A stretch of 64,000 bases of DNA, taken from NCBI GenBank assembly GCA_951406725.2, contig OX597816.1, positions 149,606,001 to 149,670,000 of the forward strand, given 5' to 3'. The stretch comes from Octopus vulgaris (lineage: Eukaryota). The translations under genes were made by a program, and so were the position numbers. Positions within the stretch are counted from its first letter, which is position 1. Each line of letters begins with the position of its first letter. Positions 53,301 to 56,300 of this stretch are shown here, in pieces. The notes beneath the pieces were generated by a model. The model saw only the letters and a program-made list of their open reading frames with translations, searched no databases and was not told where the DNA came from.

Positions 53301-56300
53301 TAGCAATACCTGTGCTTGACAATTTTTAAAGTGAGGTAAAGTTTTGCACAAAAACCATTCCACTCTATAAACTGCAAAGCATGATCCAAAAAGAAGAGCA
53401 AGTAGACATCATTGAGTGCATTTGCAGTCGCAGGTTTTTACATCAGTGTCCTTCTCCCAGTCTTTGCCCAACCAAAGGCTAACTACAAGATAGCAGTAAA
53501 GTATTTAAATTCAGAGTTACTTTCTCCTAGATACACTGCCTTTGAAATGGCTTGGGTAAACAGAGGAACTCTATCCACCCCTCATCTTTCATTAAAAAAG
53601 AGAAAAAGAGACTAAAATAAGAATTTTAAAAAATAAGATAAAATTGACTAAAATTAGGAATAAAATTGACATACAATATATACAATTTAAAACACAATAT
53701 GCACACACACTAGCTGAAATACAATATATACAATACATACACACACACACACACAGAATTCATAATGCAATATATACAATACACACACACAAACACTCCA
53801 CACGAACATACACAAACACACATTGAATGTCCATTGACTATGCTGTAGTTCCTCCGCTCTTTGACAGGTCTTATTTTTTGTCACATAGGGTGTCCAACAA
53901 GCATGCCTGGTGGGGTTGCCAGTTTAGTCACCGACAACCCAACCATGTAACAGGTTGTGCTGGACTACAAGATGCCAGCAGCATTCAAGAGTTACCTGAC
54001 ATATATACATATATGTACGTGTGTGTGTGTGTATACATATACATATTTATTACACACACGTGAGTGAGAACACTGAGATATTTTTGGTATCTAACATATG
54101 TCAGATACTGCGAACGCTGCTTCTGATTGGTCAATCCATGGTGATGACCCGAGGTCACAGTGACGGCACTACTTTTGTCATTCATAAGTTACAACTAAAT
54201 TTCATTCATTACTTTCACGAGCATGTAGAATGTAGCCATGTAATTAACCCTTTTGTTACTAACCTGGCCAAAACCGGCTCTGGCTCTGTGGTAAAATATC
54301 TTGTTTTCATAAGTTATTGAATTAAAATATTCCACCAAGCCTTAGTCACAATTTACGTTCCTAACACTAGCTTAGTAATAACTAAGTTACTTTACTAAAT
54401 TCTTTGTTATATTTAAAATAATTAAAAGAAACACAGAGCATCTCAAAATAAATACAGTAACGAAAGGGTTAAACAAACATACTATCTTTTTTATACCAGA
54501 TATCACTTAAAGTCATATACACATAAAATATAAACATTTATGGTGGTAATTCAATTTTTTGTTGCTAAAAAAATCACAACATATTTCGTCTGCTCGTCGA
54601 TACTCTTGCAGTGCAGGTAGATCTATCAACAAGATGGCTACTGTTGTCGATATCAAGGTGAATGATTTTGTTAAGATTGATGGTAAAGATGGGGGAAGAG
54701 TGTTATCCGGTGTTCCTCACAGATAATGAGGACTGTTAAGTTTTACTGGACTGCATGGACTGTTGTGCTCTACTCTGACTGACATTGCTACTCGAAAACA
54801 GGTTTCAGTATTATTAAAGTTATTGAAGATTCAATCTGTGTTATGTATTTCTTGAATGTGAACTTGAATGTTAACAAAATGTTAAACAGTCATCAGTTAT
54901 CAGTCATTTCACCTGAAAACTTAGCGCTATAAAGTCGGACTATCTTCCTGCGGCATGACATCTTTTACAGTTACACATTGTGACGTCACTGATGTGAAAT
55001 CAAGCTGTATTCATGCGTGCTTCAACACGATGTGAAGAATTTAGTTATTGGGTTAATAAAATATGGTTGTTTATTCGTGTGTAATAAATAAAATACCAAA
55101 CTCATTCCCTATGGATACCGTATTTATTACAACTCGTGGCTTGTAAACGTATCTAACTCGCTTTCGCTCGTTAGATACGTTTACAAGCCACTCATTGTAA
55201 TAAATACGGTATCCATAGGGAACTCGTTTGGTATTCTCTATATATCAAATAACGTGAGTTCATGGCTGTTTCCTGCACCAGCTTCATATAGCAGCCCCAG
55301 CCCATCCAAAGTACCTTGGATTGCAGGACGGCCTGCTGTGCTTACTTTGGATCGTAGGACGACCTGCTGTGCTTGAGGAGACCTATTGAGTCAAGTACAT
55401 CAACATCAAAATAAAAATCAAATGGAAATTGTAGTTGTGATACCCGTGCCGGTGGCACGTAAAAAGCACCATCCGAACATGGCCGACACCAGCGCAACCT
55501 TGACTGGCTTCTGTGCCGGTGGCACGTAAGAAGCACCAACCGATTGTGGCCATTTTAAAATGCGATGAAGACATTTTTGGTGTAATTGTTCAAACAATTT
55601 AAAATGCCTTTCATAACAAGTCCAAGTTTCACAGAAATACAACAGGGATGGTAAGACAAATGATTTATAAAGAGCCAGCTTTGTACTCTTATTTATATGT
55701 TGCTGGCACCAAACACGTGACTCCAAGCTACCAAATGGTTTTGCTGCCCTTTGAATTCGCAGCTGTATTTCTGTATCAAGATTTCCTTCATTTCGAACAG
55801 AGCTTCCAAGGTAGATGAATGAATCGACAACCTCAAGTAACTTTCCCTTAAAAATTTTAGGGGAGTTAAAAACAGCACCACACGCAGGTCGATGCATTAC
55901 AACTGTCTTTTTTTCAAGTTGATGGTCAAGCTAAAATCATCACAAGCAGAATAAAATGCAGATACAAGAGATTCCAGACCTGTTTCAGAATGACTGACAA
56001 GATCACAATCATCAGCATGCAAAAGTCCCTAATGAGTGAAGTAAAAACCTTCGTTTTTGAATTTCAGTCTGGTCAGATTAAAGACATTCCCTGTTGTTTG
56101 ATATTTTATGTAAATACCCTCTTCAGAGTTTTGAAAAGCATGTGACAACACCACAGCAAAATATATTGCAAAGAGGGTGGGTGCATCAAGGTCTCCTTGC
56201 TTTACTCCATTTTCCACAGCAAAAGATTCAGAGAGCCTACTACCAAAATTAACTCTCGCTTTCATATCTTGATGCAAAGCCCTGATCATGTTCACAAATT

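What the first reader, a model, noticed from the sequence alone, without database searches (positions are those of the whole stretch)
55092..55235. Strand-asymmetric long hairpin: periodic tandem G.A bubbles and a GCGAAAGC cap on the minus strand only
Seen: three perfect stems (10, 28 and 22 bp) are interrupted only at CTC(G/A) motifs facing CTCG motifs, and the apex is CTCGCTTTCGCTCG. The two CTCA variants look like CpG decay of CTCG. On the plus strand the bubbles are weak TC/TC mismatches. On the minus strand they read CGAG/CGAG and the apex is GCGAAAGC. Established: 5'-GA/GA tandems form stable sheared G.A pairs, d(GCGAAAGC) is an exceptionally stable mini-hairpin, and integron attC sites and IS200/IS605 ends use strand-specific folded ssDNA as recombination substrates. 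Inference: the mismatches are selected rather than decay, so that one strand folds into a continuous ~70 bp rod. This suggests an animal mobile element mobilised through a folded single-strand substrate, possibly by a Crypton-type tyrosine recombinase. The minus strand is also the SPT20 pre-mRNA strand, so it would form a long GNRA-capped dsRNA.
Basis: partly seen in the sequence, partly recalled or inferred. Interest (0 to 1): 0.8.

Follow-up and report, generated by a model that had tools for sequence, protein, structure and literature searches.

The report
Folded single-strand end of Crypton transposon
The hairpin is the end of a young octopus jumping gene of the Crypton type, and its shape, kept in distantly related elements, suggests that these transposons likely move as folded single-stranded DNA rather than as the double-stranded circles assumed so far.

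Summary
The hairpin is real and is the 3' end of a young CryptonA DNA transposon (window copy 54047-55241, internally deleted; 129 exact apex matches in the genome). Full-length copies (2.41 kb) encode one DUF3504 tyrosine recombinase with R-H-R-Y intact. In related elements from metagenomes the stems differ, but 23 of 41 two-by-two mismatches are GA tandems (controls 8 of 70), all in Y-GA-R context, mostly under C(GNA)G caps: motifs that stabilise folded DNA on one strand. Insertion leaves no target duplication at five of six informative empty sites. Against: 53 of 71 unselected octopus copies have a bubble erased or the apex inverted (real or assembly error, unresolved), the energy model separates the strands by only 2-3 kcal/mol, and no biochemistry exists. 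The SPT20 RNA idea is unsupported. Identity is near certain; the single-strand mechanism is inferred (about 0.55).

The parts
54047..55241 (+). Internally deleted (non-autonomous) copy of a CryptonA DNA transposon; starts TTATTACAC, ends CTCTAT
   Evidence: Ends shared by copies; full-length copies are 2341-2417 bp
54047..54057 (+). 5' end of the element, complementary to the internal segment 55077-55087
54244..54472 (.). Unrelated 225-bp MITE inserted into this copy, TTAA at both sides and short terminal inverted repeats (piggyBac-like, by recalled criteria)
   Evidence: Absent from other copies; coordinates
54634..54739 (+). Remnant of the recombinase gene: first 27 and last few codons, about 1.46 kb deleted between 54715 and 54716
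   Evidence: comparison with L031, L033, L036
55077..55090 (.). Internal complementary segment: exact 14-nt reverse complement of the joined 3' end (3 nt) and 5' end (11 nt); two further bases of the 3' end stay unpaired
   Evidence: natural head-to-tail junction in L161 folds this way; recurs in relatives
55092..55235 (-). Long subterminal hairpin: stems 10, 28, 22 bp, three GA/GA tandems and a GCGAAAGC cap on the minus strand
55236..55241 (+). 3' terminus; crossover after 55241, target-derived bases follow
   Evidence: Empty-site comparisons; end statistics

Best explanation
The hairpin is the 3' end of a young CryptonA transposon, and it likely works as a folded single-stranded DNA recombination site for the element's own tyrosine recombinase. 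Shown: the element, its recombinase gene, the conserved bubbles and caps, the internal segment complementary to the joined ends, and insertion without target duplication at a TAT|WTAT-like target. Inferred: when the GA-bearing strand is exposed (replication fork or cruciform), it folds into a rod of about 70 bp in which the GA tandems form sheared pairs, while the other strand has open TC/TC loops; the 14-nt internal segment would pair across both ends and so splint them into a duplex crossover site with two unpaired bases; the recombinase would exchange one strand to release a single-stranded circle and later join its folded site to a chromosomal target, with replication finishing both steps, as for integron attC and CTXphi attP.
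For: Recombinase gene about 340 nt upstream of the hairpin in 7 of 18 DUF3504 loci of the genome; R266, H394, R397, H420, Y429 conserved in 40-44 of 44 aligned proteins; model matches QRICH1, Cre and other tyrosine recombinases. Of 39 related loci with at least 750 nt downstream, 19 have a 3' hairpin; GA tandems are 23 of 41 two-by-two mismatches in 23 distinct hairpins next to the gene versus 8 of 70 in 48 control hairpins (Fisher p 7e-7), and 23 of 23 are in Y-GA-R context; the four control hairpins that hold those 8 look like Crypton ends themselves. Bubbles in L049 (41% protein identity) sit 61, 30 and 6 positions from the axis, in octopus 62, 30 and 6, with 33 compensated and 28 identical pairs of 72 positions in an ungapped register. 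The complement of the 5' end precedes the 3' hairpin in 9 of 20 hairpins tested (0 of 100 shuffles each) and runs across the end-to-end junction in 7 of 8 of these examined. A separate clade has the mirror layout (hairpin 5' of the gene, GA on the plus strand), which keeps the hairpin at the 5' end of the GA strand. d(GCGAAAGC) and d(GCGAAGC) melt at 76.5 C, the RNA octamer at 39 C (PMC13037366, passages); CGAG tandems form sheared pairs in DNA (PMC10085684, passages).
Against: No biochemical or in vivo test. 53 of 71 unselected copies carry at least one bubble overwritten by the other arm or an inverted apex. The nearest-neighbour model gives only 2.2-2.7 kcal/mol between strands. 14 of 23 distinct hairpins near related genes have no GA tandem, L097 among them, and 20 of 39 loci with room show no 3' hairpin (many are broken copies, not checked one by one). 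L053 and L126 (one family) have a 3' hairpin with GA on the plus strand, the opposite polarity. 11 of 20 hairpins showed no 5'-end complement. Compensated stems can arise by arm-to-arm copying without selection. No source of single-stranded circles (no HUH or helicase gene) is encoded.
Confidence: 0.55

Rival explanations
1. Standard Crypton model: the element moves as a double-stranded circle; the inverted repeat acts as duplex or cruciform binding site, and the CTCG words are directly repeated protein-binding motifs or interruptions that keep a long palindrome stable.
For: It is the published working model (PMC13565253, passages; PMC3212892, passages). A head-to-tail dimer (L161) and absence of target duplication fit any circle. 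Bubble spacings of 22-24 and 31-32 nt are near two and three helical turns, as for phased protein sites.
Against: It does not explain why mismatches are almost only Y-GA-R tandems placed exactly opposite each other, why caps are DNA mini-hairpin loops on the same strand, or why the joined ends have an internal complement next to the hairpin.
Confidence: 0.2
2. The folded GA strand is real but serves replication, not recombination: a nuclease- and SSB-resistant rod that primes or signals second-strand synthesis of a single-stranded intermediate, after which a duplex circle integrates (close to the DIRS model).
For: Mini-hairpins occur in single-strand phage origins (PMC13037366, passages). In DIRS-1 the internal complementary region is needed after first-strand synthesis and the model ends with a duplex circle (PMC7192593, passages). 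Apex inversion in 29 of 71 copies recalls flip/flop hairpins (comparison recalled).
Against: The fold runs through the crossover point and leaves two unpaired bases beside it in octopus and several relatives, which fits a recombinase site better than a primer.
Confidence: 0.13
3. The hairpin acts as RNA (long GNRA-capped duplex in element or host transcripts such as SPT20).
For: The octopus cap GAAA is a GNRA loop; contigs of a run guessed to be RNA cover the hairpin; SPT20 is on the minus strand.
Against: GA strand is antisense to the recombinase gene in most families and sense in the mirror clade; caps in relatives are mostly GNA triloops, a DNA motif; no Rfam family near its threshold; copies lie in both orientations.
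Confidence: 0.05
4. Neutral by-product: the palindrome is made and kept by template switching, and the bubbles are leftovers without function.
For: Arm-to-arm overwriting is visible (L035, L237) and frequent in this assembly.
Against: Such copying erases bubbles, yet they persist with the same chemistry and spacing across recombinase lineages only 35-50% identical.
Confidence: 0.05

Closest known systems
CryptonA DNA transposons (Kojima and Jurka 2011, PMC3212892; e.g. CryptonA-1_LG of Lottia, CryptonA-1_OL of medaka; Glomhopper, PMC13465315)
   Same: Single DUF3504 tyrosine recombinase with R-H-R-Y, about 2-2.4 kb, many short non-autonomous copies, no classical terminal inverted repeats.
   Different: Those papers report no terminal repeats for animal Cryptons (section 8 and supplement 1 read) and contain no occurrence of 'hairpin' or 'palindrom'; here the ends have a long bubble hairpin and an internal complement of the end junction. 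Glomhopper paper cites 4-6 bp flanking direct repeats for Cryptons; here five of six empty sites show no duplication.
Integron attC sites (PMC2727003, passages)
   Same: Imperfect inverted repeat, structure rather than sequence conserved, strands differ in their folded form, unpaired bases near the crossover, tyrosine recombinase.
   Different: No attC core or cassette array; strand asymmetry here rests on GA tandems and GNA caps; the site is completed by the far end of the element; eukaryotic, own recombinase.
CTXphi attP(+) (PMC4246890, passages)
   Same: About 150 nt folded single strand that rebuilds a duplex site; one strand exchange, finished by replication.
   Different: CTXphi uses host XerCD at dif and has a rolling-circle gene; this element encodes its recombinase, has a loose A/T target and no replication gene.
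DIRS retrotransposons, internal complementary region (PMC7192593, passages)
   Same: Internal segment complementary to both element ends that reproduces the circle junction; tyrosine recombinase; single-stranded intermediates.
   Different: No reverse transcriptase or LTRs here; segment is 14 nt plus a hairpin arm rather than 88 nt.
IS200/IS605 family (PMC13565253, passages)
   Same: Subterminal strand-specific hairpins, no target duplication, single-strand circle.
   Different: HUH (Y1) transposase and small hairpins at both ends; not a tyrosine recombinase.

Membership tests
CryptonA | Tyrosine recombinase with DUF3504 domain and intact R-H-R-Y | tested here: met
   Pfam DUF3504 E 1e-26 and Phage_integrase E 6e-9; residues conserved; fold matches QRICH1 and Cre
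CryptonA | One gene only; no reverse transcriptase, DDE transposase or extra C-terminal domain | tested here: met
   One 518-522 aa frame in 2.41 kb; three Pfam hits, all recombinase-related; C-terminal 70 residues low-confidence
CryptonA | Non-autonomous derivatives outnumber full-length copies | tested here: met
   129 exact apex matches versus 8 recombinase-bearing copies among 18 DUF3504 hits
CryptonA | No terminal repeats reported | tested here: inconclusive
   No terminal inverted repeat and no target duplication, but a subterminal 14-nt inverted copy of the end junction exists
CryptonA | Groups with named CryptonA reference proteins in a tree | not tested
   No Repbase or Dfam sequences available; tree holds only this protein and 78 metagenome relatives
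Integron attC-type site | Recombinase acts on one folded strand only | not testable with these tools
   Needs binding and cleavage assays
Integron attC-type site | Extrahelical bases near the crossover in the fold | tested here: inconclusive
   Two unpaired bases predicted in octopus and an offset in L049; other families show mismatches instead
Integron attC-type site | attC core sequence, cassette array, IntI integrase | tested here: not met
   Junction is CTAT|TTAT; dispersed element; Cre ranks above the integron integrase 2a3v (rank 29) in the fold search
DIRS | Internal region complementary to both ends | tested here: met
DIRS | Reverse transcriptase/RNase H and inverted LTRs | tested here: not met
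IS200/IS605, Helitron, Replitron | HUH nuclease | tested here: not met
   No such Pfam hit in the only frame

The most novel reading that the evidence does not exclude
Animal CryptonA elements are a eukaryotic counterpart of integron cassettes and CTXphi: autonomous transposons whose tyrosine recombinase recognises a folded single strand, with a built-in DNA splint that joins the two ends and sheared G.A pairs that pick the strand. The copy-by-copy bubble repair and apex flips in the genome are then scars of that folded intermediate.
Probability: 0.45. Interest if true: 0.88.

Novelty: new variant of a known kind. Interest (0 to 1): 0.74.

Why it matters
A September 2026 review states that the Crypton transposition mechanism has not been shown experimentally and assumes a double-stranded circle (PMC13565253, passages). 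This element supplies exact ends, a predicted substrate, a target preference and near-intact recombinase frames, so the question becomes testable with oligonucleotides and one protein. If true, single-strand tyrosine recombination, known from bacteria and phages, also operates in animals; it would give a rule for finding Crypton boundaries, bear on Crypton-derived conserved repeats and genes (Eulor5/6, ZMYM, QRICH1), and offer a compact structure-guided recombinase without target duplication.

Tried and rejected
Rfam: 7 matches at E up to 1 in 53000-57500, all far below family thresholds. Viral contigs: 30 loci, only short weak integrase matches, no relative. Prokaryote genome contigs were not searched with the protein, so nothing is said about them. 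A second hairpin family in this genome with the commonest coral-type apex: 0 matches. Sequencing runs: no holder on record as RNA. Short-read contigs could not settle whether bubble overwriting is real: the change at 55135 appears in 4 of 4 runs at 2-9% of summed depth, but stems shorter than the word length hide most forms. No end-to-start joint was among the 15 of 25 joints shown. Overwriting does not rise with copy age (rho -0.35 with stem divergence, -0.22 with 5'-end divergence), shows only 3 mirrored against 90 single private changes, and does not follow subfamily markers. An ungapped hairpin scan was too strict (11 hairpins) and was replaced. The RNA energies printed were not used. The tree is the quick method only. 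The terminal base 2 from the 3' end is C in 17 of 94 copies, weakly tied to a C at the same place of the left flank (p 0.012); unexplained. Helitron, MITE of a DDE transposon, parvovirus end and microRNA were considered and dropped once the recombinase link was found.

Full report
Observation. The hairpin is at 55092-55235 with stems of 10, 28 and 22 bp. Neither strand is matched by any of 200 shuffles. As DNA the minus strand folds at -65.0 and the plus strand at -62.3 kcal/mol; that this model lacks the special stability of sheared pairs and mini-hairpins is my own knowledge. Only the CTCA at 55191-55194 is decay in this copy; the one at 55101-55104 is the family state.

What it belongs to. 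The stretch has 40 scored copies at 98-100% identity among 361 candidates in the 2.8-Gb genome, and the 22-base apex has 129 exact matches, 62 forward and 67 reverse. Copies share both ends and differ by internal deletions. The window copy spans 54047-55241 and holds an unrelated MITE. A DUF3504 search gave 18 loci; in 7 the gene lies between the same two ends, about 340 nt upstream of the hairpin, an eighth is a partial copy, one holds a short copy beside an unrelated exon, and 9 show no element ends. Full-length copies are 2341-2417 bp with one frame of 518-522 aa that hits DUF3504, Phage_integrase and QRICH1. R266, H394, R397, H420 and Y429 are kept in 44, 40, 43, 42 and 42 of 44 aligned proteins. 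The model (mean pLDDT 79.6) matches QRICH1, Cre and other tyrosine recombinases. The closest named protein is from Octopus sinensis, 95% identical. This is a CryptonA element by the features in PMC3212892 (passages, section 8, supplement 1).

Ends and target. Empty paralogous sites for L163, L209, L159, L165 and L019 show flanks that join without duplication; L163 and L209 together fix the crossover as flank|TTAT...CTMT|flank. The sixth site, L033, has 4 extra bases relative to its paralogs. Among 94 copies the right flank reads W (87), T (91), A (76), T (78); the left flank is only loosely TAT. One head-to-tail dimer (L161) carries the exact end-to-end junction; it fits a circle but also an insertion at another copy's end.

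Conservation of the fold. A profile of 44 proteins retrieved 80 metagenome loci, 32-51% identical to the octopus protein. Of 39 with at least 750 nt downstream, 19 have a hairpin within 900 nt. After merging similar ones, 23 hairpins near the gene contain 41 two-by-two mismatches, 23 of them GA tandems on one strand, found in 9 of the 23 hairpins; 48 control hairpins have 8 of 70, and those 8 lie in four hairpins that are copies of this element or look like Crypton ends. All 23 are CGAG (14), TGAG (5) or CGAA (4). Caps are mostly C(GNA)G on the same strand. In L049 the bubbles sit at almost the same distances from the axis as in octopus while about half of the pairs have changed (the outer stem is one base out of register, which inflates the count). 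Sixteen loci have the octopus layout, one is mixed, a separate clade has the mirror layout, and L053/L126 break the polarity rule (quick tree). d(GCGAAAGC) and d(GCGAAGC) melt at 76.5 C against 39 C for the RNA octamer (PMC13037366, passages), and CGAG tandems form sheared pairs in DNA (PMC10085684, passages). This points to folded DNA rather than RNA.

Window 55077-55090 is the exact reverse complement of the last 3 plus the first 11 bases of the element. In the natural dimer L161 the fold runs through the junction, leaving two bases of the 3' end unpaired. In relatives the complement of the 5' end precedes the 3' hairpin in 9 of 20 hairpins tested (0 of 100 shuffles each); for 5'-type hairpins 1 of 7 is clear and 1 marginal. 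In 7 of 8 positives examined the match crosses the junction (ends chosen by eye). This is the logic of the DIRS internal complementary region (PMC7192593, passages) and of CTXphi attP (PMC4246890, passages), and the unpaired bases recall attC (PMC2727003, passages).

Evidence against. Of 77 copies fetched on the apex match alone, 71 could be oriented by a marker outside the hairpin; 18 have no altered site and 53 have at least one. The apex is inverted in 29; the inner bubble is overwritten on the left in 24 and on the right in 16, on both sides in 2 of 56; the outer one in 9 and 20, on both in 2 of 61. The first 30 loci hid this because they were picked for likeness to the window. The changes do not grow with age and do not follow subfamilies, so they arise at or soon after insertion, or are errors of the assembly; short-read contigs did not decide. 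An earlier AI note on another genome (e1-9509793) reached a similar single-strand idea and also suspected mis-sequencing; it is not independent support. If real, bubbles are constantly erased in copies yet persist across lineages, which argues for selection in active elements; it could also mean they are not strictly needed.

SPT20. One domain exon lies at window 34493-34639 on the minus strand and a weak second at 35002-35061. Whether the transcript reaches the hairpin was not established, and nothing ties the fold to this gene.

Novelty. Ten full-text searches, seven of them with Crypton terms, listed no paper describing such ends. The 2011 founding paper reports no terminal repeats in animal Cryptons, the 2026 Glomhopper paper has no occurrence of hairpin, stem-loop or palindrome (passages), and the 2018 Repbase review links Eulor5/6 to Crypton termini without those words (PMC5753468, passages; its alignment figure was not visible). 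A 2026 review says the mechanism is undemonstrated. Repbase and Dfam entries, subscription papers, preprint supplements and supplements 2-6 of PMC3212892 were not seen and may note the hairpins.

Verdict. Identity as the 3' end of a CryptonA element: about 0.97. One-strand DNA folding as the selected property: about 0.75. Folded strand as the recombinase substrate: about 0.55. New variant of a known kind; interest 0.74.

Noticed in passing
window 54244-54472: MITE with TTAA flanks inserted in the Crypton copy; weak matches in L040 and L042.
   Followed up: partly
L031 protein residues 12-55: A confidently modelled five-strand N-terminal domain (pLDDT about 90) with no Pfam hit, ahead of the recombinase; SH3/Tudor-like by eye only.
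   Followed up: no
L161 2202-3200 (oriented): Head-to-tail dimer of two different short copies joined exactly at the predicted circle junction; the only true junction among 5 pattern hits.
   Followed up: yes
L237 1360-1530; L035 1212-1373: Copies in which one whole arm is overwritten by the other, in L237 including a private mutation and the two unpaired terminal bases.
   Followed up: partly
L031, L032, L036: The three copies without an in-frame stop in the DUF3504 match all have deletions inside the hairpin, while copies with a full hairpin carry stops.
   Followed up: no
L039, L041, L043, L045-L048; L035/L040/L042: DUF3504 genes without element ends, probably domesticated; not analysed.
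   Followed up: no
L053, L061, L099, L124, L126, L128 upstream of the gene: Short 5' hairpins with CACATGTG arms and a CCAAT box in the loop; the octopus 5' end also has CACATGTG and a reverse CCAAT box.
   Followed up: no
P0063: An Octopus vulgaris predicted protein carries an 86% identical piece of the recombinase N-terminus fused to other domains.
   Followed up: no
window 51126-52990, 55418-58260 (minus) and 60760-62023 (plus): Broken frames that read like LINE endonuclease/reverse transcriptase and Penelope-type reverse transcriptase (my reading, not scanned).
   Followed up: no
window 59274-59675 and 32349-32706: Interspersed repeat with a CAT-repeat head and internal 63-bp tandem units.
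   Followed up: no
window 3010-3522: Inverted repeat with 162-nt arms, 90% complementary.
   Followed up: no
one search runs: About half of the element's words are held by runs under four organism codes, so the family is shared by several labelled organisms.
   Followed up: no
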